IMG/VR virus record: IMGVR_UViG_3300035698_014118
Span: 14,190-78,189 of that record
Origin: a virus
DNA length: 64,000 bases
Reading direction: 5' to 3' (one strand)
Both the position numbers and the translations under genes were made by a program. Of the stretch, positions 40,401 through 62,801 are shown in pieces (within the stretch, counting starts at the first letter, position 1; each line of letters opens with the position of its first letter). A model generated the notes under the pieces. That model was given only the letters and a program-made list of their open reading frames with translations. It had not been told where the DNA came from and ran no database searches.

Positions 40401-40464
40401 ACAGAAAAACGCTCTAGCAGAAGAGGATAATGATATCCAACTCCGTAAAGCATACGGAAGATAA
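34432..40464 (+). CDS. giant prohead protease/scaffold-like protein
   Basis: N-terminal NDNGDAF..NH..ARG..GTSMGC..FIENSFV protease-like domain; ITEKQ repeats; acidic C-terminal half; directly upstream of the capsid genes. Confidence 0.65.
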   Translation: MSLNKTASMTLINVQALNTPEQWEEFNLDNIKIASAQEKEALGGFDIKSAVTGHPDHLFVKVFAIKKDEVNDNGDAFSEKELLKAYQSFVGVPIFCNHQNNDIEKARGKVAHSWYDKKQGGIFIIARVDKIAYPKLARGIEEGYITGTSMGCSVEYSVCSICHHRAATADQYCEHVRERKNKKFSGNVECQYECLSANDSCPVCGKTQDEKKIVKHNASTVFEHNFDLKFIENSFVVNPACHECGVTEILNLPAINKKVASLRETLKKINETACSDGTCKLQKVAGKQEVDYLNDAMDKIERVAKSMMSQKHHVSMEYVSDLVKALADVQGITDELVEMGYTQLPSPVVTGEEDVDLSKESTDEIDPQQLGEAPQQLGEAPAQPVQTTVSPAGIVNENIGDVGSITKPKYSSNIIDKKKKEFITASDNLIKKLALLQDSIVAKEIVSEQQTNSTENISDKELEMTAENADKVGTEQDNMEKTAEHSTEVITEKQLPNAEGAGERWDAAPDIITEKQLDKPTANKDPNETTSDSPQHRTGSYEVITEKQLDSIASGYVTRWNDWPNVITEKQWTDVSRWIGSTLSNDQDTVISEKQLSDFMSHHGYSSPTFITEKQLNGSDTEQTKRWADDTSGMIKAAEDAISDTIAYFMKTPTEVKKAIAFIHENPRNLEKAAFLTLINSLPHKSDDRKNAKAKYTYLSKMAQQEVEGPGLLDALVISMSDNLSRFNTEDFMSALKHVSSNKKAMSQVDNIVRIKLAGDLEVEDVVTKEAAFESAIANLDRPEDGTYQVNATIAEIGKNPKNKSEFLNALHAFAGNVINDDGIKTAITKVDLDEKKGIVVATLKNVEALTPAEQAAIVSRQNRKPVEEQRESLDEEEMLLNGKDSIKGAPRTYSSRKEAREGLLKSAQMFGGEMGGQGGASQAPGAGASLPQPPQDMGQAPVESFEQSDLGEVGMDESLQPKPPGSSCPVCTSDDVDIINGEGKCNNCGADISYEIQIKVKNWPNTMESNRDSSEEGDTLSDEANLEEEDAGFKMPEGGEPMAAAASTKNDKTKKTASVEEYEVDKFAATVLLKKDVITKVAEAKIALGSVSPLTGNTETIDIGNGKHVCLDTGATYSVQYAVSKADPKKVYARWIWEPKTADTCSNCSRAKTAFVSALKSMGSSEKEFDEQDIKSKAETILAMRKAGHLKTIKIAENKNSVIEEYKKAYNTTTMGDKFPIESCREKLARRFGENALALSGPCEGKPLYDCVCSSLKSADVYSHGLAIKVAEVWKDKEASSECMEDFVRQGYELKEAATICELMRMKYAQFDDEFATELEDAVSDNLDQVEDDIDGPEVSPFDNLDEGVEGVDESTVTIELPAELVEQLDAALDVSLGENPAIEDHHEDIVEEEGVADIAEIGGAEDVVDDEPVVEVGVAELGEEKDMVGGNPAGDLGGAGGMGGDVNPAAGGQVANLEGGDVLAPELGSDLDSEVGGDVDGLEIEVELGGEELGGDELGGEEGGNQCEELAKKVLSEELSLADALNQIPEEEQDALLDAIKAVNNCEKEEGIKNDVVETVEEDATDVVDEGETFKEGGEEETVKEEGPVVEEDKDCIASENTEMVTTQTEEEMIIEAQKMRRGRIGHTGEINLDLSAVMNVINKEAGEKELKQENAQDTPDLGKVKDTTTIGDEDAFTDGVDSKPNVPSENATMGQEPSDLNPSSAPKVKIPVGSENMGHEELEGGDNRATGGEQGQGTSRAANTKDRITALAEGILQAQANQIKVADEKKVERHQNQDDEDVKPYSEGDGSFMGNEKESIESVPAAEAKPSQVPTTDSAFIGNEKESIGDKPSEKDTPDIPAKDDRIKGEKDNEKIAPEKEEQVTGITGTGQGGVIASSDAESKVHKTNEAAYKLAGRMLQNNMIEVGQLESKVAELNKYESAQLKDLETAMFSGQKGLNAPSDGIEQAVIVGEVSSEKEAQKRNEHMMKDAQEELTGQLQSIFSLAQKNALAEEDNDIQLRKAYGR

Positions 40465-40480
40465 AAAGGAGTAATGAACA

Positions 40481-41050
40481 ATGGCTCTTATTGAAATTTA
40501 TCATGTAGTAGCTGATTACTACCCAGTAGACCCTGATTGGACTAACCCGATTATTGAAGGTATGGCAGTACGTCTTAATGCTGCTGGTTTCGCTCAGGCT
40601 TCAACTGGCGCAGCTAATACACACGATATTGGCCTTGCTGGCGACAGCATGACCACTAACGTTCCCACAGCAGCCAACCCGCATACTCCGTATTCTGCCG
40701 CACTGACCGTAAACTCAGCAGGTAGTCAAGCTTGGACCCAGAACAGAGTTTCTGATGCATTCGATGAGACTTTGGCATCTGCCCAGCTAACTGTTTATAA
40801 CGGCGGCGGCAAGTTCGCAACTACAGAATACGAATTGCTCACCGGCGGCGTTCCTATTGCTTATGCAATAGGCGATGCATTGTATGCAAGCGCAAATGGT
40901 CGTTTGACCAGTGTAGCATCTGCAAGCGCTCAGATAATTGCAGACGTTGTTGGCACACCCGGAGCATATCCTAGTGGCGTACCGGGCACTGATACAGCAG
41001 ATGGCTCGCTGTCTCTAGGCACGTACCTCACTGTATTGCTGCGTAACTAA
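40481..41050 (+). CDS. probable capsid decoration/cement protein
   Basis: A/G/T-rich; GDALYASANGRLT; located between scaffold and MCP. Confidence 0.6.
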   Translation: MALIEIYHVVADYYPVDPDWTNPIIEGMAVRLNAAGFAQASTGAANTHDIGLAGDSMTTNVPTAANPHTPYSAALTVNSAGSQAWTQNRVSDAFDETLASAQLTVYNGGGKFATTEYELLTGGVPIAYAIGDALYASANGRLTSVASASAQIIADVVGTPGAYPSGVPGTDTADGSLSLGTYLTVLLRN

Positions 41051-41132: not shown

Positions 41133-42002
41133 ATGGCTATGACAAAGACTCTTACTGACCAACAGAAAGAAGAAGTAATTGCTCAGGCTCTAGAGACCGA
41201 TGAGGGTAGAGTAGCCCTAGCTCAGGCTATGGTAGAACCTATCCGTCGTTCCCTAGAATACCAGGCTGTCGGACGTAAGCTTCTGATGGTTGACGAACTG
41301 CCGCAGGGCGCACTCGCTCGTTACGAGAGAGACGTTGCCGCTATCGCGCATGTAGTTAGCCGTAGAGGTGCCGTACCTGACCAGATTCAGGAAGGCGAAG
41401 AAATTCTAGTTCCGACGTTTGAAATTGCTGCAAACCCAAGCGTACGTTTATCTGAGATCAAGGCACGTAGATTTTATATCGTTGACCGTGCCCAGATCAA
41501 AGCTAAAGAAGCTATCCAGAAAGAAGAAGACACAAACATTTTCAACGCATTGATCGCCGCTGCTAATACCAGAGGTACTCAGATTGTCCAGAACGTTGGA
41601 AACCTTACTGTCAACTCTCTGAACACCGCTTATAGACTTATTGAACAGCATGACCTTGTTTGCACAAAAGTAGTTATGCAGGCCAATAGATTTGCCGATA
41701 TTCGTTTGTTCGGTAAAGATTTCTACGACGAAGCAACGCAAAGAGAAATTATCACGACTGGTCTTTATGGACATCTTTGGACCGCTGACCTGCATGTTAG
41801 CTCTAGAATGTCCCCGAACACCGTTCTTTTGGTAGCTTCTCCCGACACAGTTGGTGCTTTCCCGATTCGTCAGGACATCACTGTGCTTCCGGCTGATGAT
41901 CCCAAGAAGTTGCGTCTTGGATGGGTAATTTACGAGGAAGTCGGAATCGTTGTAGTTAACGATTACGCTATCTCTCTCATTCAGATCGTTGCTGCTACGT
42001 AA
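41133..42002 (+). CDS. major capsid protein (HK97 fold)
   Basis: Strong RBS, biased codon usage, GRVALAQAMVEPIR, PTFEIAANP, followed by a terminator. Confidence 0.8.
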   Translation: MAMTKTLTDQQKEEVIAQALETDEGRVALAQAMVEPIRRSLEYQAVGRKLLMVDELPQGALARYERDVAAIAHVVSRRGAVPDQIQEGEEILVPTFEIAANPSVRLSEIKARRFYIVDRAQIKAKEAIQKEEDTNIFNALIAAANTRGTQIVQNVGNLTVNSLNTAYRLIEQHDLVCTKVVMQANRFADIRLFGKDFYDEATQREIITTGLYGHLWTADLHVSSRMSPNTVLLVASPDTVGAFPIRQDITVLPADDPKKLRLGWVIYEEVGIVVVNDYAISLIQIVAAT

Positions 42003-44096: not shown

Positions 44097-45060
44097 GTTG
44101 GAAGCAAAGCCCTTGATTAGAAGGGTTTCTTAAATCGCACAAAAGTGAATATAAGAGTATTCGTTATAGCTTCGGTTGTAACAAATACAAAGGGGCCGTA
44201 TAGGGTCCATCAAGAGTAAGGTTGGCGACAACCCCAAAGAATTGTTTGACATACAATTCGCCTTTCAATTATGTTAGGTTCATCTATAAAAGCCTACTCT
44301 TCTTGGTTTCCTGCAACGGGAACTAAGGACGGAAGTTAGGACTGGTGGAAGAGGCAAAATCCTGGGCAACGCTAGGGAGATAAGTCCTGCTCTTAGCAGA
44401 GCTACACTGTCATGCTAAAACTAATTACGTTTGAGAGAGAAAGGTAGTTACTGAGTTCAAGTACGTTGCTGTATAAGGGCGAAGTAGCAGTTCTAAAGAT
44501 TTTCGGGTTTGGCTTATGGAGGTTAAAGCCCATAAGGTAAACACGATTATCTTGAAGAACGGAGGAACCCAATTGGCAGTTGGGCCTCATGAACGGTGAG
44601 TGATATTGGCTACCTCAAAAGGGTAGTTAATCGCTGAGCCAGCGCGTCGTTCAGTCAACCACCCGTTTAGCTCATTAGTAGAGCGAAACCAATTTAAGGT
44701 TTAGGCAGTAGGTGCAATCCCTGCAACAGGTACCAAAGCAAAAAGGCTGGCTTGGCGCTCGATCAAAGCGGCTTAATTCTGTAGCCTTTCGGGGTAATAC
44801 AGACGTTTGAGGCTCGCAAGGCTGATAATGTTGATTCAGGATGACTATGTTAGCGGTTAGCTGCTGCTAATATGGTTGGAAGAATCGAGTAGTCGAGTGT
44901 TACAGAGGTAATGCCTCCTCTTTAAATTGGGCAGTCGTGAGTTGCTACATCTCGCAAGGGATGTGGATACGTTCTTAACAGTTCGGTAACTATTGCGGTT
45001 CGAACTGGTACGGGAACTAAAGGCGGCTCTAACATGGGTATAGTCTCAGCCCACGTTAAC
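44097..45060 (+). ncRNA. large structured ncRNA, GOLLD-like (boundaries approximate)
   Basis: ~1 kb without a credible ORF; many hairpins with GCAA/TTCG-type loops; lies in a tRNA array; contains an embedded tRNA-like domain. Confidence 0.55.
44661..44735 (+). tRNA. atypical tRNA-Lys(TTT)-like element embedded in the large ncRNA
   Basis: ACCCGTT/AACAGGT-A-CCA; AAACC-AATTTAA-GGTTT; lacks U33. Confidence 0.55.
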
Positions 45061-45214: not shown

Positions 45215-45601
45215 ATGAACATCTATGAAAAGCTACAAGAGTTTGACCAACGCATAAAAGAATGCGATGAGACTATCGATAACATGAAGTCTGAACGTAG
45301 TCTACTGCTCAAAGAGAGATCAACATTTTTAAAAGATTATAGACTAAAAGTAGGTTCTAACTCTATATCTTTTAAACCTTCTGGGGAATTTGTAATAAAC
45401 ACTCCTTTTAATGGCAGTTCATCGGCATATAGCGGTCATATGAATGCGGTTATAAGACCAGATCAGATCAAAGAATTTTGGAAGACAATGCTTAGATTCT
45501 TCGATGATGATCCGTCTATAGGAAAGACTAAAATCATTAAGAAAAAGAAGAAGAAATCTGGAAAAGATCAATATCAGTTTATGGATTTGGAAGACGAATA
45601 A
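45215..45601 (+). CDS. hypothetical protein
   Basis: RBS AGGAG; N-terminal coiled coil. Confidence 0.6.
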   Translation: MNIYEKLQEFDQRIKECDETIDNMKSERSLLLKERSTFLKDYRLKVGSNSISFKPSGEFVINTPFNGSSSAYSGHMNAVIRPDQIKEFWKTMLRFFDDDPSIGKTKIIKKKKKKSGKDQYQFMDLEDE

Positions 45602-47379: not shown

Positions 47380-48360
47380 ATGAAACTAGAGGATATTGGA
47401 TTTTACACGTTATGTGATGAGAGAGCGAGAAATGTGGATGGTACATCTCCTATGTGGAGATGCGAGATGATGTTGACGGGCAGATGCAATTTTAGTTGTC
47501 CATATTGCAGAGGTCCAAGAAAAGAATATGCAAATGATATAGATACCGCAGAAGCTATTGCTACTACAGATTTGTGGGCTGAAGATGGTTTAAAGAACAT
47601 TAGATACTCTGGGGGAGAACCAACCGTACACCCAGACCTCGTAGAAATAGTTGCTAACGCCCGCGATAAAGGTATTGAAAGAATCGCATTGTCGTCTAAT
47701 GGTTCGGCTTCTTTTTCTTTGTACAGCGAATTAGTAGATGCCGGTGTAAATGACTTCTCTATCTCGTTAGATGCTTGTTGTGCTTCTTACGGCGACAAAA
47801 TGACTGGCGTAGATGGCGCTTTCGATAAAGTTATTTCTAATATTAAATTGTTATCTAAAATGACTTATGTAACTGTTGGAGTAGTTGCTACAGAGGATAA
47901 TGTTTCTACTTTAACAGATGTTGTCGATTTTGCTCACGATTTGGGAGTAGCAGATATCAGGATCATTTCTGCTGCTCAATACAATAGGATTTTGGAAAAC
48001 GTCAAGGGTTTGTCTGACGAAGTATTAGATGCTCACCCAATCTTGAAGTATAGAGTTGGAAACATCAGATCAGGCAGAAACGTCAGAGGACTTTCGGAAT
48101 CTGACTGTAAGAAATGTCACTTGATTAAAGACGATAGCGTAGTTGCTGGCGGTTATCACTTCCCATGCGTTATTCACATGAGGGAAGGTGGAGAGGCTAT
48201 CGGTAAGGTCGGTCCAAACATGAGGCAAGAGAGATTAGACTGGTGTGAAAGAACTAATGTCTTCGAAGATTTAATTTGCAGAAAAAATTGTTTAGACGTT
48301 TGTATTGACTATAATAACAAGAGCGAAGAATTGAAGTCGGAGTGTATTGTAGACGGGTGA
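47380..48360 (+). CDS. radical SAM protein (MoaA-like)
   Basis: CNFSCPYC, SGGEPT, SISLD, C-terminal Cys cluster. Confidence 0.85.
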   Translation: MKLEDIGFYTLCDERARNVDGTSPMWRCEMMLTGRCNFSCPYCRGPRKEYANDIDTAEAIATTDLWAEDGLKNIRYSGGEPTVHPDLVEIVANARDKGIERIALSSNGSASFSLYSELVDAGVNDFSISLDACCASYGDKMTGVDGAFDKVISNIKLLSKMTYVTVGVVATEDNVSTLTDVVDFAHDLGVADIRIISAAQYNRILENVKGLSDEVLDAHPILKYRVGNIRSGRNVRGLSESDCKKCHLIKDDSVVAGGYHFPCVIHMREGGEAIGKVGPNMRQERLDWCERTNVFEDLICRKNCLDVCIDYNNKSEELKSECIVDG

Positions 48361-48380
48361 AAATCACCCGTCTACAATAC
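48344..48380. repeat. perfect 17-bp inverted repeat
   Basis: GTATTGTAGACGGGTGA-AAA-TCACCCGTCTACAATAC. Confidence 0.85.
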
Positions 48381-48388
48381 GTATTGTT

Positions 48389-48535
48389 ATGAATGAAAAT
48401 TATAAAAATCTGGTGCTTAAGACATACATGGACTTATATGCTAAAGGTGTAATTGCTATGAGTACTTTGATGGATTATGCTAACGAACTATATCCTGATG
48501 AACAGTATTTCAAATGGCAGGATATAGCAATATGA
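48389..48535 (+). CDS. W-tag mini-protein, portal-like fragment (48 aa)
   Basis: Manual translation MNENYKNLVLKTYMDLYAKGVIAMSTLMDY..FKWQDIAI. Confidence 0.65.
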   Translation: MNENYKNLVLKTYMDLYAKGVIAMSTLMDYANELYPDEQYFKWQDIAI

Positions 48536-48723
48536 CATATGAAGAAAAAGAACGAGTTATAGCTGCTGCTTTAGTAGAATCCAAGAAGAATAAATTTTCT
48601 TCAATGTATAGTTCTCTTGCTGATAAATTAGTTAGTGTCCAACCGATGCCTTTGCCAAAAGGTCTAATCTACTATATTTATCGTTCAAAAGATGAATTCT
48701 TTTGGCAGGATATGGAAATATGA
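48532..48723 (+). CDS. W-tag mini-protein, capsid-like fragments
   Basis: MTYEEKERVIAAAL..VSVQPMPLPKGLIYY..FFWQDMEI. Confidence 0.7.
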   Translation: MTYEEKERVIAAALVESKKNKFSSMYSSLADKLVSVQPMPLPKGLIYYIYRSKDEFFWQDMEI

Positions 48724-48935
48724 CTTTACATAATAAAATGACTGAGGCCATGTATACTTCTATATACGATTTGTATCCAGAAGTATACGACAATAAACCT
48801 ATGCCAGATAAAAAGAGATTTTTAGAATTATCACTATATATCTTAAAACATGTCAAATACGACAAAGAGCCTGTTTTCGATTTGGTACGGGATTATTGTT
48901 CAGGAAATTTTATATGGATAAACATAAAAGACTAG
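48720..48935 (+). CDS. W-tag mini-protein
   Basis: Ends FIWINIKD. Confidence 0.6.
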   Translation: MTLHNKMTEAMYTSIYDLYPEVYDNKPMPDKKRFLELSLYILKHVKYDKEPVFDLVRDYCSGNFIWINIKD

Positions 48936-49105
48936 ATGGTAATTGGGAAATACATATGATATCTGCTCGTCAAACAGGTAAAACTACTTTGATGGAAGAT
49001 GTAATGAAATTAGCTTTTAAGAAAATGGGCGATTATCCTGTTTCCGGTTGGTATAAGAATGGCATTAAAAAGACGGATTTTGTATGGAAAACAATGAAAA
49101 TATAA
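48914..49105 (+). CDS. W-tag mini-protein with a terminase-type Walker A
   Basis: ARQTGKTT..FVWKTMKI; start may be 48956. Confidence 0.65.
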   Translation: MDKHKRLDGNWEIHMISARQTGKTTLMEDVMKLAFKKMGDYPVSGWYKNGIKKTDFVWKTMKI

Positions 49106-49233
49106 AGAAACCTGAACTTTTACCATGGGGCGAAAAAGAAGATGCATTGATGCTATTAGCTAATCGGTTGCTGGTATATAAGTTTATGATAAAGTACCCT
49201 GATTGGTTTTTTTGGAGAGAAATGGTAATATGA
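49084..49233 (+). CDS. W-tag mini-protein (49 aa)
   Basis: Manual translation ends WFFWREMVI. Confidence 0.6.
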   Translation: MENNENIKKPELLPWGEKEDALMLLANRLLVYKFMIKYPDWFFWREMVI

Positions 49234-49412
49234 ATAAACCATATACAAATGGTGTTAAAGCATCGGAGCTTCTGCCTGTCAAGTTCTTTTATGCTCCATA
49301 TATACCGCTTCTAACTACTTCTACACTAAACATTGAAGACTTGAGAACAAGAACGAAATATGGATTGAAATTATTAAAAGAAACGTTCGTTTGGAGAGAA
49401 ATGACGATATGA
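49230..49412 (+). CDS. W-tag mini-protein, T4 gp23-like fragment
   Basis: FFYAPYIPL..TKYG..FVWREMTI. Confidence 0.7.
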   Translation: MNKPYTNGVKASELLPVKFFYAPYIPLLTTSTLNIEDLRTRTKYGLKLLKETFVWREMTI

Positions 49413-49621
49413 CAGAAACTGCGTCCTATGATAAATGCTATGGCGAAGAATCTAATTATTTAAAAACTATGCTACCTAATGAAAGACATCTATTAATACA
49501 ATATTGGGAATCTCAGGCTTATAGTGGTAGCTACGTTGGAGATATTGGGTCAATGATAAGAGAAGAGCAGCTTAAGGTTCTTCGAAAAGGATTCTTTGAA
49601 TGGAAAAAGATGACGACATAA
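49409..49621 (+). CDS. W-tag mini-protein
   Basis: Ends FEWKKMTT. Confidence 0.6.
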   Translation: MTETASYDKCYGEESNYLKTMLPNERHLLIQYWESQAYSGSYVGDIGSMIREEQLKVLRKGFFEWKKMTT

Positions 49622-49761
49622 ACCCAGTTTTTGATATTAACGTTCAACATTGGACTATCAAAAGAATAAGCAATTACGAAGAAAAAGACGGTGTTATTGG
49701 AGCTAATTACTCTGTTAGATATGAACCTATAATTTTTAAATGGAAGGATATCTCTGTATGA
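49600..49761 (+). CDS. W-tag mini-protein (53 aa)
   Basis: Manual translation ends FKWKDISV. Confidence 0.6.
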   Translation: MEKDDDINPVFDINVQHWTIKRISNYEEKDGVIGANYSVRYEPIIFKWKDISV

Positions 49762-50177
49762 AAACTGATGACAAACCTGTTCGCGTAGGAACTGCTATTA
49801 TTCTTATTGATGATCAGAATAGAGTTCTGCTTGGTAAACGTTGTGGTAAATTCATGCCGGGAGTTTATGCTTTGCCGGGAGGTAAACCTGATTTCGGAGA
49901 ATGTCCAAAAAAAGCAGTCATCAGAGAGACGAAAGAAGAAACTGGACTGAAGATATTCGATGTTCAGGAATTTACATGGATCAATAATTTTATGCCTCAG
50001 CATGATATGCATTACGTAACTCTGTTCTATGTATCTATTATCTATAGCGGTACGCTTGAAGTAAAAGAAAAAGACAAATGTGAAAAATGGGATTGGTATA
50101 GTCAAGATAAGCTTCCTAATCCTATGTGGCCAGGATTAGAAAGAATCCTAATTAAGTATTGGGAAGAAAATGGATGA
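49758..50177 (+). CDS. NUDIX hydrolase (MutT/NUDT15-like)
   Basis: PGGKPDFGE..AVIRETKEETG; EKDKCEKWDW. Confidence 0.9.
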   Translation: MKTDDKPVRVGTAIILIDDQNRVLLGKRCGKFMPGVYALPGGKPDFGECPKKAVIRETKEETGLKIFDVQEFTWINNFMPQHDMHYVTLFYVSIIYSGTLEVKEKDKCEKWDWYSQDKLPNPMWPGLERILIKYWEENG

Positions 50178-50352
50178 GTCTTTAAAAAACCGTATAGACG
50201 AAATACTTTTTCCTAAGCTTTTATATGATATATCAGAGATGCAAGATAAAGCTCTTTTGGAAGCAATGTCGATGACTGAGTTTACTAGAAGACAAATTTC
50301 TCAGATATTCTATTCTAGAGATTTTTTCTTTTGGAAAGATATAGTATTATGA
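50170..50352 (+). CDS. W-tag mini-protein
   Basis: Ends FFWKDIVL. Confidence 0.6.
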   Translation: MDESLKNRIDEILFPKLLYDISEMQDKALLEAMSMTEFTRRQISQIFYSRDFFFWKDIVL

Positions 50353-50572
50353 TAATTGACATGGAAAGCATATAAATGGCTAATGGCGTACACCATATTC
50401 AATCTGTTTATGATCTCGCTAAACTAGATAAAAAATCTATTCGGGAATCCATAAGACTATTGGGTTTAACGGAATATAGAGCAACAGAAATATACTTTTT
50501 AGCTTTAGGAATATCTGAGGGGTGGTTTGTATGGCAAGGTATAAAGACATAATAATTGACATGGAAAGCATA
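50352..50572. repeat. 21-bp direct repeat flanking one mini-gene
   Basis: ATAATTGACATGGAAAGCATA at 50352-50372 and 50552-50572. Confidence 0.85.
50376..50552 (+). CDS. W-tag mini-protein (58 aa)
   Basis: Manual translation MANGVHHIQ..WFVWQGIKT. Confidence 0.6.
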   Translation: MANGVHHIQSVYDLAKLDKKSIRESIRLLGLTEYRATEIYFLALGISEGWFVWQGIKT

Positions 50573-50707
50573 CAGGATTCATACGAAATAACTAAATCTT
50601 GCAATATGGTTATCTCTTTCAGTAATGACGCTTTAAGTGATTTTATCAGTCATATTGATAGACTGATAGACCCTGTTTATTTTGAATGGAATGATATTAC
50701 AATATGA
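50561..50707 (+). CDS. W-tag mini-protein, helicase-like fragment
   Basis: MESIQDSYEITKSCNMVISF..FEWNDITI. Confidence 0.6.
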   Translation: MESIQDSYEITKSCNMVISFSNDALSDFISHIDRLIDPVYFEWNDITI

Positions 50708-50832
50708 ATAAAGGTGAATTAACGGTATTTGTCGGAAGGCATGGTTGTGTCCCAGATCAAATCTATGAAGGAGATGAAATGTATTTTCCTTGTAAAATAG
50801 AGTATTTTGTCTGGCAAGATATTACGATATGA
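50704..50832 (+). CDS. W-tag mini-protein (42 aa), helicase-like fragment
   Basis: MNKGELTVFVGRHG..FVWQDITI. Confidence 0.6.
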   Translation: MNKGELTVFVGRHGCVPDQIYEGDEMYFPCKIEYFVWQDITI

Positions 50833-50945
50833 CCGAAAAAGATAAAGAAACTTTATATAGAAGCATGGTTACATACGTTGGAAAATTTTATCGTCTAGGT
50901 AGTAAATTATTTTCTATGTTTGTCTGGCGAGATATCACTGTCTAA
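50829..50945 (+). CDS. W-tag mini-protein (38 aa)
   Basis: MTEKDKETLYRSMVTYVGK..FVWRDITV. Confidence 0.6.
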   Translation: MTEKDKETLYRSMVTYVGKFYRLGSKLFSMFVWRDITV

Positions 50946-50961
50946 TGTCGATATTTAATAT

Positions 50962-51171
50962 ATGAAAAACGGTAGAGATTTCATTCTAGAGAAAATCATT
51001 CTAAACATGCAGAAAACTACTGCTGGAATTAATGTTTTATCTAGATGCGTTGAGAATACCTTAACAGAAGAACAGAAAAAAGAATTAATAATCAATGGAT
51101 TTTCCAATGTAGAAATAAACGAATTTAACGTAGCTGTTGGATGGTTTTTGTGGAAAAATATAGAAATATGA
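50962..51171 (+). CDS. W-tag mini-protein
   Basis: TLTEEQKKELI..FLWKNIEI. Confidence 0.6.
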   Translation: MKNGRDFILEKIILNMQKTTAGINVLSRCVENTLTEEQKKELIINGFSNVEINEFNVAVGWFLWKNIEI

Positions 51172-51200
51172 GGCTCTGTGGCGGAATTGGCATACGCGCG
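51172..51200 (+). pseudogene. 5' remnant of a class II tRNA-Leu
   Basis: GGCTCTGTGGCGGAATTGGCATACGCG, then no anticodon or T arm. Confidence 0.7.
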
Positions 51201-51253
51201 GGTAGCTGAACTTAAGCCATTAAAAATCCGATATAAAGATAAAGGAGTAGATA

Positions 51254-51736
51254 ATGGCTAATAAAAAGTACAAACGTTATAGGGATAACGATATAATAGA
51301 AGCAGCTAAAACATCTTTTTCTGTAGCTGAGGTTTTGAGAAAAATAGGTTTGGTTCCAATTGGAGGAAATTATCAAACGATAAATAGGTCTATTAAGAGG
51401 CTCGATATTGATATTTCTCATTTCACAGGTAAAGGACATCTGAAGGGAAAAACACATAATTGGACACAGCCAAGACCTTTAAATGAAATTCTTGTAGAAG
51501 AATCCACTTATAGGAATACAAGCCATTTAAGATATAGATTACTTAAAGAAAATATTTTTGAGAAAAAATGTAACCGATGTGGAAGAAAGACTTGGCTTGG
51601 AAAACCTATATCTTTAGAACTAGAACATAAAAATGGCAATAAAGCTGATAATCGTTTAGAAAATCTAGAGATATTATGTCCTAACTGTCACGCTTTTACT
51701 CCAACATATCGAAAAAGAAAAATTGCGGCGGTGTAG
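51254..51736 (+). CDS. HNH homing endonuclease
   Basis: CNRCG..LELEHKNG..DNRLENL..LCPNCH; stop lies inside the next tRNA. Confidence 0.85.
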   Translation: MANKKYKRYRDNDIIEAAKTSFSVAEVLRKIGLVPIGGNYQTINRSIKRLDIDISHFTGKGHLKGKTHNWTQPRPLNEILVEESTYRNTSHLRYRLLKENIFEKKCNRCGRKTWLGKPISLELEHKNGNKADNRLENLEILCPNCHAFTPTYRKRKIAAV

Positions 51737-51799
51737 CCCAATGGCAGAGGCCCGGAGTTTAAGTCTCCGTAAGTGTGGGTTCGAATCCCATCACCGCTA
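51727..51799 (+). tRNA. tRNA-Leu(TAA), short variable arm
   Basis: CGGAG-TTTAAGT-CTCCG. Confidence 0.85.
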
Positions 51800-51830
51800 T
51801 TGAGTTATCGTTTATTAAGGAAGTTAAACT

Positions 51831-60090: not shown

Positions 60091-60422
60091 ATGAAAGAAG
60101 AATTGGACATTCCGAGTGGTCACTCTTTAGTCGATTGCGAAGTAGGATTAGGACAACTTTCTGTACATCATATTCTTCGTTCTCCTGAATCTTTCTCTTT
60201 TACTTATCAATGGATAGTATCACGTGATAACAGAATTGTCATGTATCTAAAAATATTAAATTTTACTATGATGATCAAACATGGGCAATTTTTGATGCAG
60301 ATGAATCATATATCGAATCAATAAAAATGCGTAGACCACATATTAATGATGCATTAACGAATGAGAGAACTATATATCTTCTAAATAAGAAGTGGTTTAT
60401 GTGGGTGAATATATTAGTATAA
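60091..60422 (+). pseudogene. frameshifted W-tag protein (family B)
   Basis: Frame shifts near 60250; the second frame ends WFMWVNILV. Confidence 0.5.
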
Positions 60423-60673
60423 TGAAATTTATACGTTCACATGACGTTTTTGATCTGTACCTTTCTTCCGATCATTGGATTGTAAATAGAGATGGTGATT
60501 TGGAAGCATATATATATTTTAACATAACAAAGAAAAAGTATGAGTGTGATATTCGTAAAGAAACAGTTAATGATTCTTGGAATTATTTAGAAGATTGTTT
60601 CTTCGAATGCTGTGAAATAATAGAAGAAATGTATCCTAGTATGTGGATAGAATGGCAAGATATCACGGAATAA
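60422..60673 (+). CDS. W-tag protein, family B
   Basis: Ends IEWQDITE. Confidence 0.6.
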   Translation: MKFIRSHDVFDLYLSSDHWIVNRDGDLEAYIYFNITKKKYECDIRKETVNDSWNYLEDCFFECCEIIEEMYPSMWIEWQDITE

Positions 60674-60915
60674 AAGAAAAGTTTGGGTTTGAAATACATG
60701 GAAGATTCTGCGATAATTCTTGCCAAGTAATTTATAACTCAGAAATTAAATCTTATATAGATTACGCTAATTCTATAGGTTATGTTTTTACTCCTAGTGA
60801 GAATTATTTCAACGAACATGGACCTTATGTTAGTATTCAAGATGCTTACGATGCATGTTGTGAATATTTGATGGAAAGAGACCGAGGTTTCTATTGGCAA
60901 CCAATAACAGTATAG
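60643..60915 (+). CDS. W-tag protein, family B
   Basis: AYDACC; ends FYWQPITV. Confidence 0.6.
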   Translation: MDRMARYHGIKEKFGFEIHGRFCDNSCQVIYNSEIKSYIDYANSIGYVFTPSENYFNEHGPYVSIQDAYDACCEYLMERDRGFYWQPITV

Positions 60916-60926
60916 ACTGGCCGTCG

Positions 60927-61193
60927 ATGAGTTGGTGCGGCAAAAAAGGCGATCTAGTTCTTTACCATAAAGGAACTAGCCGGTGGATAGTGGAATATCA
61001 TGATTGCAAAATGGGTTCGGTTTATGGGGACATGTTTAGCGGAGATTATTATTTTTCAGTAGATGGACTCTATAGCGAACCATCGCTTAAATTTGAAACT
61101 TTAAACGATGCTTTTGAAGCATGTTGTTTTCAAATAGATCATGAAGTACTCAATGAGCCACATTTGTTTTGGTGGCATCATATGGAGATATAA
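60927..61193 (+). CDS. W-tag protein, family B
   Basis: AFEACC; ends FWWHHMEI. Confidence 0.6.
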   Translation: MSWCGKKGDLVLYHKGTSRWIVEYHDCKMGSVYGDMFSGDYYFSVDGLYSEPSLKFETLNDAFEACCFQIDHEVLNEPHLFWWHHMEI

Positions 61194-61196
61194 TGA

Positions 61197-61469
61197 ATGA
61201 CTTTTCTTTATTCTAGATATGGTTATAGCCTTTATAAAAAAGATAATATCTGGATTGTTTCTGATAAACCAGATATTATTTATCTAACGGATTTGGCATT
61301 TATACACTATGGTGCGATCACGTTTGACAAATATAACAAACTTTACTATTATGCTTCGTATGGTAAATCTAGAGAAGAAGGGTTTCATTCATTAAATGGA
61401 GCTTTTCTAGGATGTTGCCTATATTTGTCTGGGCAAGAAGCATTTGGATGGCAAAACATGGAGATATAA
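61197..61469 (+). CDS. W-tag protein, family B
   Basis: AFLGCC; ends FGWQNMEI. Confidence 0.6.
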   Translation: MTFLYSRYGYSLYKKDNIWIVSDKPDIIYLTDLAFIHYGAITFDKYNKLYYYASYGKSREEGFHSLNGAFLGCCLYLSGQEAFGWQNMEI

Positions 61470-61604
61470 CATGTATTGGATAGAGAGAACAATCGGATAT
61501 GGCTTTTGGGTAAAGGAAAGTCATTGGTGTCATATATCAATCAAATATGTAATTTCGTTATGGTTGAGAGGAAGTAAAGTAAAGCTTGCAAAATGGTAGA
61601 ATGT

Positions 61605-61677
61605 GTTCCCTAAGCATTGATTAGTGATGTCTCGTTTTGTAAGCGAGGGTAAGTCGGTGCAAATCCGACAGGGAACT
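61605..61677 (+). tRNA. tRNA-Thr(TGT), atypical
   Basis: GTTCCCT/AGGGAAC; CTCGT-TTTGTAA-GCGAG. Confidence 0.7.
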
Positions 61678-61681
61678 TATC

Positions 61682-61755
61682 GCCTGCGTAGCTCAATCTG
61701 GTAGAGCGCCACTCCTGTAAAGTGGATGTTGTGGGTTCGATTCCCTCCGTAGGCT
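61682..61755 (+). tRNA. tRNA-Thr(TGT) (C33 variant)
   Basis: CCACT-CCTGTAA-AGTGG. Confidence 0.7.
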
Positions 61756-61759
61756 TGTA

Positions 61760-61832
61760 GCCGCCGAAGTTCATATGGGTGAACGCCTCATTGGTAATGA
61801 GGAGGAAGTGGGTCCGATTCCCACCGGTGGCT
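61760..61832 (+). tRNA. tRNA-Thr(GGT)
   Basis: CCTCA-TTGGTAA-TGAGG. Confidence 0.85.
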
Positions 61833-61834
61833 TT

Positions 61835-62128
61835 ATGTCAGAAAACTATGAAAATGAAAATCAAGTATGTATATCTAGCGTAGGAAACTATCATTTATTT
61901 TTTGACTCAGATTACGACAAATGGACAGTTTCTTACAGATACAAGACTATTTATACTATTAGAATAAGCGAGAAACAGGGATGTAAAGAAGGCGGGTATG
62001 ATCTTTATGGTTCAGGAGCATCGGAGTGGTATGGCGACAGTTACTTTGGGTTGCTAGGTATTTTTGCTATATGTATACACAAATACGAGAAAAACACATT
62101 ACTCTCATGGCAAGAGATGACAGTATAG
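61835..62128 (+). CDS. W-tag protein, family B
   Basis: Ends LSWQEMTV. Confidence 0.6.
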   Translation: MSENYENENQVCISSVGNYHLFFDSDYDKWTVSYRYKTIYTIRISEKQGCKEGGYDLYGSGASEWYGDSYFGLLGIFAICIHKYEKNTLLSWQEMTV

Positions 62129-62137
62129 GAGTATATC

Positions 62138-62377
62138 ATGGCTGGAACAAAACCAATTAATCCTAGAAGAGTATTTGAGAAGTTAATGGAAAAAGCTGCA
62201 TTCCGACGTATTGTAGCTGCTCCTGACGATATGATTGTTCGCAGATGTCTTAAAGAAGGAACACCAATACCTGAAAGATGTTTGCCGGGAAGATTACTTA
62301 ACTCGCTTACAGAGGAAGAACGAGAAGCATTAAAGAAGTTGACTTCTGATATGGTTGGGAATTACAGAATAGATTAG
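62138..62377 (+). CDS. hypothetical protein
   Basis: RBS AGGAG. Confidence 0.55.
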   Translation: MAGTKPINPRRVFEKLMEKAAFRRIVAAPDDMIVRRCLKEGTPIPERCLPGRLLNSLTEEEREALKKLTSDMVGNYRID

Positions 62378-62379
62378 TA

Positions 62380-62721
62380 ATGAAAATTCATAAAGATTAC
62401 ATGAAAAGATGTGGTATTACTAAAAGTGGAGCAATTCTATATTTTTTAAAACCCTATAAATGGCTTTGGTTTTATAAAACCGGTTCACAGTCTGCGATAG
62501 CTACTGTTAGCCCTGGAAAAGGAACGTTTGGATTTGATTTTTGGGAATTCAAATTTAAAAACCCTAAAAAACCTGATTGGGTTTATCAGAATCCTCGCAT
62601 AAATAGTGGAAATCTGTTTTCTGTCTTTCGTTGTTTGACTGACTTTGCTGCTTTAGGTGTTCCTATTCATGTTTTTGAAAACGAAATATTAGATTTTTAT
62701 TGGGAAGAGATGTTTGTATAA
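62380..62721 (+). CDS. W-tag protein
   Basis: Ends FYWEEMFV. Confidence 0.6.
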   Translation: MKIHKDYMKRCGITKSGAILYFLKPYKWLWFYKTGSQSAIATVSPGKGTFGFDFWEFKFKNPKKPDWVYQNPRINSGNLFSVFRCLTDFAALGVPIHVFENEILDFYWEEMFV

Positions 62722-62801
62722 GGAAGATTTGGGCATTGGCAGGCCCACTCGTTTCGAAAGCGAGCGCCTACGGGCTTATAGGTTCGATTCCTATCCTTGC
62801 A
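62722..62801 (+). pseudogene. tRNA-Ser(CGA) with a broken acceptor stem
   Basis: CTCGT-TTCGAAA-GCGAG and a T arm are present; the 3' acceptor strand does not pair. Confidence 0.55.

What the first reader, a model, noticed from the sequence alone, without database searches (positions are those of the whole stretch)
48389..62721. Array of ~31 mini-genes sharing a C-terminal [FL]-x-W-x-x-[MI]-x-x-stop tag: candidate new system
Seen: otherwise mostly unrelated 38-113 aa ORFs all end with Trp exactly 6 residues from the stop. The endings are FKWQDIAI, FFWQDMEI, FIWINIKD, FVWKTMKI, FFWREMVI, FVWREMTI, FEWKKMTT, FKWKDISV, FFWKDIVL, FVWQGIKT, FEWNDITI, FVWQDITI, FVWRDITV, FLWKNIEI, LTWKDIAI, LYWEDMTI, FIWVDMEI, LYWNTMTC, FQWKNIFC, FRWKEMEI, FDWYVMEI, FYWNTMEE, FSWSDMQL, FFWGEMSA, FMWVNILV, IEWQDITE, FYWQPITV, FWWHHMEI, FGWQNMEI, LSWQEMTV and FYWEEMFV. 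Several members are below the ORF-track cutoff. Interspersed enzymes and endonucleases lack the tag. Many N-terminal parts are fragments of essential phage proteins (see the next findings). Inference: a modular library of variable bait plus a constant docking tag. It could act as (i) decoys for host sensors of capsid, portal, terminase or helicase, (ii) dominant-negative adaptors that send competing phages' proteins to a protease or hub, or (iii) cargo for packaging or export.
Basis: partly seen in the sequence, partly recalled or inferred. Interest (0 to 1): 0.93.

Follow-up and report, generated by a model that had tools for sequence, protein, structure and literature searches.

The report
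Phage mini-genes sharing one C-terminal tail
One huge salt-lake phage carries about 60 small genes, mostly unrelated to one another and some built from pieces of capsid genes, that all end in the same eight-residue tail; this looks like a shared address label whose reader is still unknown.

Summary
All 31 ORFs (window 48389-62721, + strand) end in [FLI]-x-W-x-x-[MI]-x-x-stop. The loose DNA form of the motif occurs 27 times against 0.5 expected, and nowhere else in the 78-kb contig.

Conservation follows codons, not bases, and all three stop codons are used. The tail is present whatever follows it: an ATGA overlap, a later start or a tRNA. ORF bodies have the phage's coding statistics. In two AlphaFold models the tail hangs, low-confidence, behind a folded body. 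I read it as a protein-level short linear motif, not a junction artefact.

A 147-kb IMG/VR contig has 29 more, but composition, complementary tRNA sets and gene content indicate the same genome. So this is one lineage with about 60 copies. Five complete relatives, 80 MCP-linked loci and 33 radical-SAM loci lack it.

Most bodies are orphans. Four to five are fragments of capsid proteins (own type and gp23 type) and one is a single FG-GAP blade. About 18 share a five-strand-plus-helix fold. The terminase, portal and helicase fragment claims were not supported.

Function is inferred only: a common docking or targeting tag, comparable to T4's capsid-targeting sequence or a C-terminal degron/adaptor peptide. 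No receptor was found.

The parts
48389..48535 (+). tagged mini-gene, 48 aa, ends FKWQDIAI
   Evidence: first gene after hairpin 48342-48382
48532..48723 (+). tagged mini-gene, 63 aa, ends FFWQDMEI; body is an MCP N-terminal fragment
   Evidence: Pfam Gp23 profile 18-43, E 0.008. 57% identical over 21 aa to the LR756511 MCP. Its N-terminus resembles the own MCP N-terminus.
48720..48935 (+). tagged mini-gene, 71 aa, ends FIWINIKD
48914..49105 (+). tagged mini-gene, 63 aa, ends FVWKTMKI; its start overlaps the Trp codon of the previous tag
   Evidence: The Walker-A-like ARQTGKTT has no significant family match.
49084..49233 (+). tagged mini-gene, 49 aa, ends FFWREMVI
49230..49412 (+). tagged mini-gene, 60 aa, ends FVWREMTI; body is a gp23-type MCP C-terminal fragment
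   Evidence: Pfam Gp23 profile 302-339, E 0.011. tblastn hits lie in T4-like major head proteins and the LR756511 MCP.
49409..49621 (+). tagged mini-gene, 70 aa, ends FEWKKMTT
49600..49761 (+). tagged mini-gene, 53 aa, ends FKWKDISV; followed by an untagged NUDIX gene
50170..50352 (+). tagged mini-gene, 60 aa, ends FFWKDIVL; the junction carries a truncated copy of the start of gene 50531
   Evidence: (D10)
50376..50552 (+). tagged mini-gene, 58 aa, ends FVWQGIKT
50531..50707 (+). tagged mini-gene, 58 aa, ends FEWNDITI
50704..50832 (+). tagged mini-gene, 42 aa, ends FVWQDITI; body copies own-type MCP residues about 64-100
   Evidence: blastp against own MCP: 60% over 20 aa, E 2e-4. tblastn: 42% over 31 aa.
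50829..50945 (+). tagged mini-gene, 38 aa, ends FVWRDITV
50962..51171 (+). tagged mini-gene, 69 aa, ends FLWKNIEI; its stop abuts a tRNA-like 5' half
   Evidence: (D7)
55564..55776 (+). tagged mini-gene, 70 aa, ends LTWKDIAI; starts a few bases after a tRNA-type 3' end
   Evidence: D6
55773..55958 (+). tagged mini-gene, 61 aa, ends LYWEDMTI; body copies own-type MCP residues 241-283
   Evidence: 53% over 43 aa, E 6e-10. It matches all 80 relatives' MCPs at 51-54%.
55970..56164 (+). tagged mini-gene, 64 aa, ends FIWVDMEI
56166..56489 (+). tagged mini-gene, 107 aa, ends LYWNTMTC; paralogue of 56483
   Evidence: E 9e-25; no homologue in the 5.8-billion protein set
56483..56818 (+). tagged mini-gene, 111 aa, ends FQWKNIFC; its stop is followed by a tRNA-like 5' half
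   Evidence: (D7)
57051..57323 (+). tagged mini-gene, 90 aa, Cys-rich, ends FRWKEMEI; starts right after tRNA-Leu
   Evidence: D6
57323..57496 (+). tagged mini-gene, 57 aa, ends FDWYVMEI
57768..57998 (+). tagged mini-gene, 76 aa, ends FYWNTMEE; distant paralogue of 56166
   Evidence: E 1e-4
58331..58639 (+). tagged mini-gene, 102 aa, ends FSWSDMQL
58636..58827 (+). tagged mini-gene, 63 aa, ends FFWGEMSA; no ORF overlaps its stop
60327..60422 (+). tagged mini-gene, 31 aa from the first ATG (63 codons open), ends FMWVNILV
60422..60673 (+). tagged mini-gene, 83 aa, ends IEWQDITE; family B
60652..60915 (+). tagged mini-gene, 87 aa, ends FYWQPITV; family B
60927..61193 (+). tagged mini-gene, 88 aa, ends FWWHHMEI; family B, modelled
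   Evidence: AF2: five strands plus helix 59-75 at pLDDT 80-90; residues 78-87 below 50
61197..61469 (+). tagged mini-gene, 90 aa, ends FGWQNMEI; family B
61835..62128 (+). tagged mini-gene, 97 aa, ends LSWQEMTV; family B; starts right after tRNA-Thr
   Evidence: (D6)
62380..62721 (+). tagged mini-gene, 113 aa, ends FYWEEMFV; body holds one FG-GAP-type repeat; its stop abuts tRNA-Ser
   Evidence: phmmer against 1.8 billion proteins: E 1.9e-8 to a six-repeat FG-GAP protein; tRNA at 62722
41133..42002 (+). the phage's own major capsid protein, the homologue of two mini-gene bodies
   Evidence: phrog_2522, E 1.4e-65
48342..48382 (+). 19-bp hairpin separating the radical-SAM gene from the first mini-gene

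Best explanation
The array is a lineage-specific expansion of small phage accessory proteins: about 60 genes in one huge phage, 31 of them in this window. They share an eight-residue tail, hydrophobic-x-Trp-polar-(Asp/Glu/Asn)-(Met/Ile)-x-(Ile/Val)-COOH, which sits at low model confidence behind the folded body.

The tail is selected as protein. It acts as a short linear motif that one common reader recognises together with the free carboxyl end. The variable bodies (small folded domains, orphans and fragments of capsid and repeat proteins) are what gets delivered or what does the binding.

Shown: the motif, its codon-level conservation, its strict terminal position, the low-confidence tail in two models, the mixed origin of the bodies and the restriction to one lineage.

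Inferred: that a reader exists, and what it is. I rank two options about equally.
(a) A recruitment or degron peptide for a protease, AAA+ or PDZ-type reader. This would make the mini-proteins adaptors, decoys or short-lived early proteins.
(b) A virion-packaging address analogous to T4's capsid-targeting sequence.

The tight stop/start overlaps add translational coupling on top of this. They do not explain the motif.
For: - Codon-periodic conservation: TT[TC] nnn TGG nnn [GA]An AT[n] nnn nnn stop. Phe uses both of its codons. Leu, Ile and Met replace Phe through other codons. All four ATN codons occur at position 6, and all three stops are used.
- Trp is exactly 6 residues from the stop in 60 of 60 cases, and the motif is never enriched internally.
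- The tail is present with every kind of junction: ATGA overlap 10, start over the Trp codon about 8, start 2-24 nt later about 9, tRNA or nothing 4. The base before TGG is not fixed, so the overlapping frame is not the conserved one.
- Bodies without the tail score best in their own frame under the phage's codon model in 31/31 and 26/26 cases.
- Two AF2 models of different families give a confident five-strand-plus-helix body and a tail of low confidence without regular structure. The ESM Atlas structural matches stop at residue 80 of 88.
- The bodies have different origins: own-type MCP (E 6e-10 and 2e-4), gp23-type MCP (two colinear Pfam Gp23 hits) and an FG-GAP blade (E 1.9e-8). The rest are mutually unrelated.
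- Precedent: T4 internal proteins of divergent sequence share a 10-residue capsid-targeting sequence (PMC9026906). Encapsulin cargo carries C-terminal targeting peptides (PMC10960027 and PMC8346489, abstracts).
Against: - No receptor was identified. No ClpP or S41 protease, and no PDZ domain above the Pfam cut-off, is encoded in the sampled part of the genome, about 46% by CheckV.
- There is no expression or proteome evidence.
- All copies come from one lineage, so conservation across independent phages is not shown.
- The purine-rich centre of the tag could double as a weak, distant ribosome-binding site for the next gene, so part of the conservation may be at nucleotide level.
- About 18 of the 60 proteins share one fold, so part of the array is ordinary paralogy.
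Confidence: 0.55

Rival explanations
1. Junction by-product. The conserved 27 nt is an RNA or DNA element at cassette boundaries: a restart or coupling signal for the next gene, or a recombination site for cassette shuffling like PeSLs or attC. The peptide is only its translation. Inserted DNA survives only if it keeps an open frame running into the junction.
For: - Stops overlap the next start (ATGA) in 10/31 cases here and in most junctions of the 32-37 kb array on the second contig.
- 28/31 tags have an ATG, TTG or GTG over the Trp codon.
- The centre of the tag is purine-rich and GGAG/AGGA-like.
- The junction at 50352 carries a duplicated 20-nt stretch and a truncated gene start, which shows cassette-level rearrangement (D10).
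- Gene fragments as bodies fit a picture of random insertions.
- PeSL cassettes are a precedent in T4-type phages (PMC2839356, PMC4122927).
Against: - Conservation has strict 3-nt periodicity with free wobble positions, and substitutions keep hydrophobicity rather than bases.
- The invariant TGG lies 14-15 nt before the ATGA start, too far for the AGGAG at -7 to -10 that this phage uses.
- The tail is equally conserved where a tRNA or no gene follows.
- The identical base stretches are too short for homologous recombination.
- Sigma-70-like promoters and terminators are not enriched.
Confidence: 0.17
2. Plain paralogue family. All the mini-genes descend from one small gene, and the tail is merely its best-conserved structural segment, with no separate tag function.
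For: - Two groups of paralogues exist in each contig.
- Family A (second contig) and family B (this window) have the same predicted five-strand-plus-helix topology.
- An hhalign of A against B aligns the C-terminal 29 columns at P = 0.002.
Against: - The tail is modelled outside the fold at low confidence.
- Bodies derived from MCPs and from an FG-GAP repeat cannot share that ancestor.
- Sizes range from 31 to 152 aa, with no body similarity for most pairs.
- Complete relatives with 71-82% identical MCPs have neither the tail nor homologues of two tested body groups, family B and 56483. The diversity is therefore too great for simple divergence since the lineage split.
Confidence: 0.15
3. RiPP-like substrates. 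The tail is the core or recognition motif for the radical-SAM enzyme encoded just upstream (47380-48360), for example a Trp cross-link as in streptide or triceptide systems.
For: - The radical-SAM gene (Pfam PF04055, E 1.7e-21) is nearest to MoaA, PqqE and SPASM-type maturases, and it directly precedes the first mini-gene.
- Trp-x-Asp/Glu/Asn recalls three-residue cyclophane motifs (from my own knowledge, not tested here).
Against: - 33 homologues of the enzyme (48-59% identical) in other phage contigs have no tagged ORF within 10 kb.
- The second contig's arrays have no such gene beside them.
- A 19-bp hairpin separates the gene from the array.
- The 'precursors' have no shared leader and are folded proteins.
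- All NCBIfam matches are far below their cut-offs.
Confidence: 0.04

Closest known systems
T4 capsid-targeting sequence (CTS) on internal proteins IPI, IPII and IPIII
   Same: A roughly 10-residue terminal peptide is shared by internal proteins whose mature parts have diverged. These IP genes are poorly conserved among related phages. The peptide alone directs foreign proteins to a common destination (PMC9026906).
   Different: The CTS is N-terminal and is removed by the prohead protease. The sequences are unrelated. T4 has a handful of such proteins, not about 60. Packaging of the tagged proteins here is not shown.
Encapsulin C-terminal cargo targeting peptides
   Same: A short targeting motif on dedicated cargo proteins mediates loading into an HK97-fold shell (PMC10960027, PMC8346489; abstracts seen). 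From my own knowledge, these peptides are C-terminal and flexible.
   Different: From my own knowledge, the usual encapsulin motif is Gly/Ser/Leu-rich, not Phe-x-Trp-x-x-Met, and does not need to end exactly at the C-terminus. Here the cargo would be dozens of proteins, and no binding to this phage's capsid protein is shown.
C-terminal degrons and adaptor docking peptides (ssrA tag, SspB XB peptide) and class II PDZ ligands (hydrophobic-x-hydrophobic-COOH)
   Same: An unstructured tail at the extreme C-terminus with a hydrophobic last residue. Position 6 is hydrophobic in 31/31 and position 8 in 26/31. The fixed distance to the free carboxylate is typical of such readers (established knowledge, not tested here).
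   Different: The motif is not LAA-like. Trp and Phe lie upstream of the last three residues. No PDZ domain above the Pfam cut-off and no ClpP or S41 gene was found in the sampled genome. No turnover data exist.
PeSL cassettes of T4-type phages and integron cassette arrays
   Same: Arrays of small, mostly orphan ORFs in one orientation, separated by a recurring short sequence, in fast-changing regions (PMC2839356, PMC4122927).
   Different: Those junctions are non-coding: a promoter plus stem-loop, or attC. Here the recurring element lies inside the ORF and varies like codons.

Membership tests
T4-type capsid-targeting sequence | Short terminal peptide shared by otherwise unrelated small phage proteins | tested here: met
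T4-type capsid-targeting sequence | N-terminal position, removed by the prohead protease | tested here: not met
   The peptide is at the extreme C-terminus in 60/60 cases. Cleavage cannot be tested.
T4-type capsid-targeting sequence | Tagged proteins are present in virions | not testable with these tools
   Needs a virion proteome.
Encapsulin-type C-terminal cargo peptide | Flexible C-terminal extension behind a folded cargo | tested here: met
   AF2 gives the tails low confidence and no regular structure.
Encapsulin-type C-terminal cargo peptide | Gly/Ser/Leu-rich consensus | tested here: not met
   The tail is F-x-W-x-[DEN]-[MI]-x-[IV]. The encapsulin consensus is taken from my own knowledge.
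Encapsulin-type C-terminal cargo peptide | Docks on the inner face of the HK97-fold shell protein | not testable with these tools
   Needs binding or cryo-EM data.
C-terminal degron / PDZ class II ligand | Hydrophobic-x-hydrophobic at the free C-terminus | tested here: met
   Position 6 is Met or Ile in 31/31; position 8 is hydrophobic in 26/31.
C-terminal degron / PDZ class II ligand | A cognate reader (PDZ, S41, ClpP) encoded alongside | tested here: not met
   No hit above cut-off in G000 or G001. One 15.7-bit PDZ_2 match in a tail-fibre-region ORF was judged spurious. The genome is only about 46% sampled, and a host reader remains possible.
C-terminal degron / PDZ class II ligand | Tail-dependent turnover or binding | not testable with these tools
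   Needs an experiment.
Radical-SAM RiPP precursor set | Co-occurrence of the maturase with the precursors in related loci | tested here: not met
   0 of 33 homologous radical-SAM loci carry tagged ORFs.
Radical-SAM RiPP precursor set | A shared leader or recognition sequence on small peptides | tested here: not met
   The N-terminal parts are unrelated, and several are folded domains.
PeSL / integron-like cassette junction | A non-coding junction repeat with a promoter plus stem-loop or attC structure | tested here: not met
   The repeat is in frame inside the ORF with codon periodicity. Promoter-like and terminator-like sites are at or below the shuffle expectation.
Major capsid protein (for the four fragment bodies) | A full-length HK97-fold subunit | tested here: not met
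   The matches cover only 20-49 residues each. Positions that are invariant in 19 real MCPs are changed in the fragments.

The most novel reading that the evidence does not exclude
The array is a protein-level interference library. Fragments of oligomeric or repeat proteins (capsid proteins of this and of T4-like phages, a propeller blade, and others not yet recognisable) serve as baits that co-assemble with their parent proteins. The constant C-terminal tail hands the complex to one effector, such as a protease or other hub. This would give the phage a modular, expandable way to neutralise competitors' structural proteins or host sensors of them.
Probability: 0.12. Interest if true: 0.92.

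Novelty: new variant of a known kind. Interest (0 to 1): 0.72.

Why it matters
Shared terminal address peptides on unrelated phage proteins are known from only a few cases, such as the T4 internal proteins. About 60 genes carrying one C-terminal motif, including deliberate-looking fragments of capsid genes, would be the largest such set.

It also offers a direct handle. An eight-residue peptide can be used as bait to find its reader, and could later serve as a portable tag. The system is absent from complete close relatives, so it arose and expanded recently, which implies either strong selection or a self-propagating mechanism.

If the bodies really are baits, this would be a new logic for phage-phage or phage-host conflict. 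If the tail is a degron or a packaging signal, it would show how a huge phage controls a whole class of accessory proteins at once.

Tried and rejected
- Radical-SAM link. 33 homologous loci in IMG/VR have no tags. Rejected.
- Second independent phage. The only other IMG/VR contig with an array (G001) has the same tetranucleotide signature (r = 0.92, against 0.1-0.5 for other phages) and the same GC content. Its tRNA anticodon set is complementary and its ends match in gene content. I treat it as the same genome, not as independent support.
- Metagenome scan with the strict pattern. It stopped at 120 rows and none of them held an array. It was not exhaustive.
- Relatives. 80 MCP-linked loci (69-91% identical) and five complete genomes of 461-548 kb show only background counts. 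They have no homologues of family B or of 56483.
- Homologue searches for 56166, 56483 and the second contig's 152-aa member found only the proteins themselves, or nothing.
- Terminase, portal and helicase fragment claims. No significant matches.
- Pfam and PHROGs scans of all 31 proteins. Only Gp23 (2 members) and phrog_2522 (1 member) stand out from noise.
- hhalign between families without their tails was not significant.
- Foldseek against PDB found nothing. Against BFVD it found only weak matches to uncharacterised small phage proteins.
- The second ESM Atlas look-up was uninformative.
- Complex prediction of a tagged protein with the MCP and the putative scaffold (40481-41050) gave no verdict. 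It is no evidence either way.
- Reverse search with the FG-GAP protein against the phage genomes found nothing, not even the known match, so it is uninformative.
- Sequencing runs. No RNA holder is listed. Four salt-lake metagenome runs hold short contigs identical to the window at low depth. The joints seen there have short sides in tRNA-like repeats and were not used.
- The megaphage LR756511, whose MCP matches two of the bodies, has no tag array.

Full report
**1. What is there**

The DNA form TTYNNNTGGNNNNNNATNNNNNNNTRR occurs 27 times in the window, all on the + strand. The expectation from 100 dinucleotide-preserving shuffles is 0.51 +/- 0.70. There is no intact case in the remaining 63.8 kb of the 78-kb contig. 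One interrupted look-alike lies at 45406-45432. Inside proteins the motif occurs at chance level, 1 observed against 0.97 expected.

From the likely starts the proteins are 31-113 aa long. The genes between them carry no tag: NUDIX, three HNH endonucleases, a LAGLIDADG/HTH protein, an interrupted UDP-glucose dehydrogenase and a lipoprotein-like ORF. Eleven of the window's 21 tRNA genes lie from 47277 onward, in or beside the array.

**2. Protein-level or nucleotide-level?**

- An alignment of the 31 junctions shows information at codon positions 1-2 of residues 1, 3, 5 and 6 and at the stop, with free third positions.
- Phe uses TTT 16 times and TTC 10 times. It is replaced by Leu (CTA, CTC, TTG) or Ile (ATA).
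- Position 6 uses all four ATN codons, and TAA, TGA and TAG all serve as the stop.
- The amino-acid pattern is F26/L4/I1; variable; W31; mostly K/Q/R/N; D12/E6/N5; M17/I14; T10/E8; I15/V6.
- The overlapping -1 frame is not the conserved one, because the base before TGG varies.
- The tail does not depend on what follows. Ten stops overlap the next start as ATGA. About eight next genes start over the Trp codon. About nine start 2-24 nt later. Four tails are followed by a tRNA or by nothing.
- The phage uses canonical AGGAG about 7-10 nt before its starts. The invariant TGG lies 14-15 nt before an ATGA start, so a ribosome-binding role cannot explain it, although the purine-rich centre may help coupling.
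- Bodies without their tails fit the phage's in-frame codon model better than either shifted frame, in 31/31 cases here and 26/26 on the second contig.

I conclude that these are real coding genes and that the tail is conserved as a peptide.

**3. Structure**

AlphaFold2 was run on 60927-61193 with its four paralogues. It gives five strands and a helix (residues 59-75) at pLDDT 80-90. Residues 78-87, which cover most of the tag (81-88), fall below 50 and have no secondary structure.

A member of the largest family on the second contig has the same topology. Its last ten residues have low confidence (mean pLDDT 54) and almost no secondary structure. The ESM Atlas model of the first protein is matched structurally only over residues 7-80. 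Fold searches find only uncharacterised small phage proteins. In both modelled families the tag is therefore a tail behind a folded body that the models do not place.

**4. Distribution**

- A strict pattern scan of IMG/VR gave 97 stretches. Only one contig had multiple hits: IMGVR_UViG_3300035698_019437, 147 kb.
- That contig has 29 tagged ORFs, all on the + strand. They lie at 2.4-10.5 kb among tRNAs and at 32.0-37.8 kb as a run of ATGA-coupled genes, with one more at 126.8 kb.
- The two contigs share almost no proteins. I first took this to mean two unrelated phages.
- Other evidence points the opposite way. Their tetranucleotide signatures correlate at 0.92, as high as the two halves of one contig, against 0.1-0.5 to other phages. 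GC is 36.4% against 36.0%. Their tRNA anticodon sets do not overlap. One contig ends and the other begins in tRNA/mini-gene DNA, and the opposite ends both carry glycosyltransferase-like genes (the window contig's by my reading of ORF starts, not profile-tested).
- They are best read as two pieces of one genome: CheckV 17% plus 29% complete, with relatives of 460-550 kb. So about 60 copies exist in one lineage, and there is no independent replication.
- The phage belongs to a populous clade of huge phages. Eighty IMG/VR loci have MCPs 69-91% identical, and none has a tag within 10 kb. In this window the array begins 6.4 kb after the MCP gene.
- Five complete relatives show only background pattern counts on both strands. 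They have no homologues of two tested body families.
- A truncated metagenome scan added nothing.
- Short contigs identical to the window occur at low depth in four salt-lake metagenome runs from 2017-2019.

**5. The bodies**

Without their tails, most pairs are unrelated by blastp and phmmer. The exceptions are 56166/56483/57768, the 60422-62128 group, and groups on the second contig.

Several bodies are demonstrably pieces of larger proteins:

- 55773-55958 copies residues 241-283 of the phage's own MCP at 53% identity, E 6e-10. The MCP is 41133-42002, phrog_2522, E 1.4e-65.
- 50704-50832 copies MCP residues of about 64-100.
- Both of these change positions that are invariant in 19 real MCPs.
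- 48532-48723 and 49230-49412 each hit Pfam Gp23, at profile positions 18-43 and 302-339, with E about 0.01 each. That two of 31 small proteins hit the same family in N-to-C order makes chance very unlikely.
- Their best tblastn matches fall colinearly in one MCP gene of megaphage LR756511.1 and in major head proteins of T4-like Aeromonas phages.
- The first of these two also begins like the own MCP: TYEEKERVIAAAL against TDQQKEEVIAQAL.
- 62380-62721 contains one repeat unit of FG-GAP propeller proteins, E 1.9e-8 against 1.8 billion proteins.

In total, 5-6 of 31 bodies are fragments, about 18 of 60 share one small fold, and the rest are orphans.

**6. Arrangement**

Genes and tRNAs are packed without spacers. 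Tag stops abut tRNA 5' ends, and tRNA 3' ends are followed within a few bases by TATTATG starts (D6 and D7). This suggests long transcripts punctuated by tRNA processing.

A 19-bp hairpin separates the radical-SAM gene from the first mini-gene. The junction at 50352 carries a truncated duplicate of the start of gene 50531 (D10), so cassettes are duplicated and deleted near the tags.

**7. Interpretation**

The data fit a short linear motif at the free C-terminus, read by one common partner and attached to many different bodies. The invariant spacing to the carboxyl end and the hydrophobic last residue are typical of readers of C-termini, such as degron or adaptor peptides and PDZ-type domains. 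The shared-address logic is that of T4's capsid-targeting sequence (PMC9026906) and of encapsulin cargo peptides (PMC10960027).

I cannot decide between recruitment to a protease or hub and packaging. No PDZ domain above the Pfam cut-off and no ClpP or S41 gene is present in the sampled genome, and half of the genome is missing.

The rivals are:

- a junction element whose translation is incidental, which the codon periodicity and the junction-independence argue against;
- a plain paralogue family, which the mixed origins of the bodies and the unplaced tail argue against;
- substrates of the neighbouring radical-SAM enzyme, which 33 tag-free homologous loci argue against.

It rests on six genes and no functional evidence, so I give it as the novel case rather than the main reading.

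**8. Verdict**

The feature is real, restricted to one lineage, and was not found in the family libraries or the papers searched. Its kind, a shared terminal address peptide on diverse phage accessory proteins, is known. Its position, sequence, scale and fragment cargo are new.

Noticed in passing
window 44591-45052 (+): A full-length GOLLD RNA (Rfam RF02032, 183.7 bits, E 1.5e-50) lies in the tRNA cluster upstream of the array. The tRNA-Lys that ARAGORN calls at 44661-44735 lies inside it.
   Followed up: no
G001 (L157/L158) 32.7-44.4 kb; relatives L287 15185-19523 and L349 14712-15629: A second multigene family in this phage clade shares a conserved N-terminus (MNWY[KR]xxQ, MNWFKQA, or MR/KxIRTxGxK) on proteins of 130-655 aa. 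This is a shared terminal peptide at the opposite end, and relatives that lack the C-terminal tag have it too.
   Followed up: no
window 51172-51799: A tRNA-like 5' half starts directly after the tag stop at 51171. Contigs from one salt-lake run join 51199 to 51773, skipping the HNH endonuclease gene (51254-51736). This looks like an endonuclease-bearing insertion in a tRNA gene. Similar 5' halves occur at 54734 and 56819.
   Followed up: partly
window 45406-45432 (+): A tag-like stretch, TTT TAA TGG CAG TTC ATC GGC ATA TAG (F*WQFIGI*), has an in-frame stop at its second codon. It lies in the tRNA region ahead of the array and may be a decayed tag or chance.
   Followed up: no
window 51831-54067: The UDP-glucose dehydrogenase is interrupted. 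The N-terminal and central domains are in 51831-52973 (Pfam). An endonuclease-like ORF follows at 53010-53777, then a 97-aa ORF whose sequence contains ...VTHNCFPKD.
   Followed up: no
window 34432-40464 (+): A 2010-aa protein whose first 185 residues or so match a head-maturation protease (phrog_18299). It sits just upstream of a 189-aa ORF and the MCP gene.
   Followed up: no
window 41133-42002 and alignment A3: The 289-aa MCP is nearly invariant over residues 25-137 across 19 clade members that are 70-91% identical overall. This is the region from which one mini-gene fragment derives.
   Followed up: partly
window 49383-49412 versus L164 3100-3195: The natural C-terminus of the gp23-type MCP of LR756511 (...KFYARMTIHNFVI) resembles the tail of mini-gene 49230-49412 (...TFVWREMTI) once a one-residue gap is allowed. 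The tag may have originated from a capsid-protein C-terminus, or the likeness is chance.
   Followed up: partly
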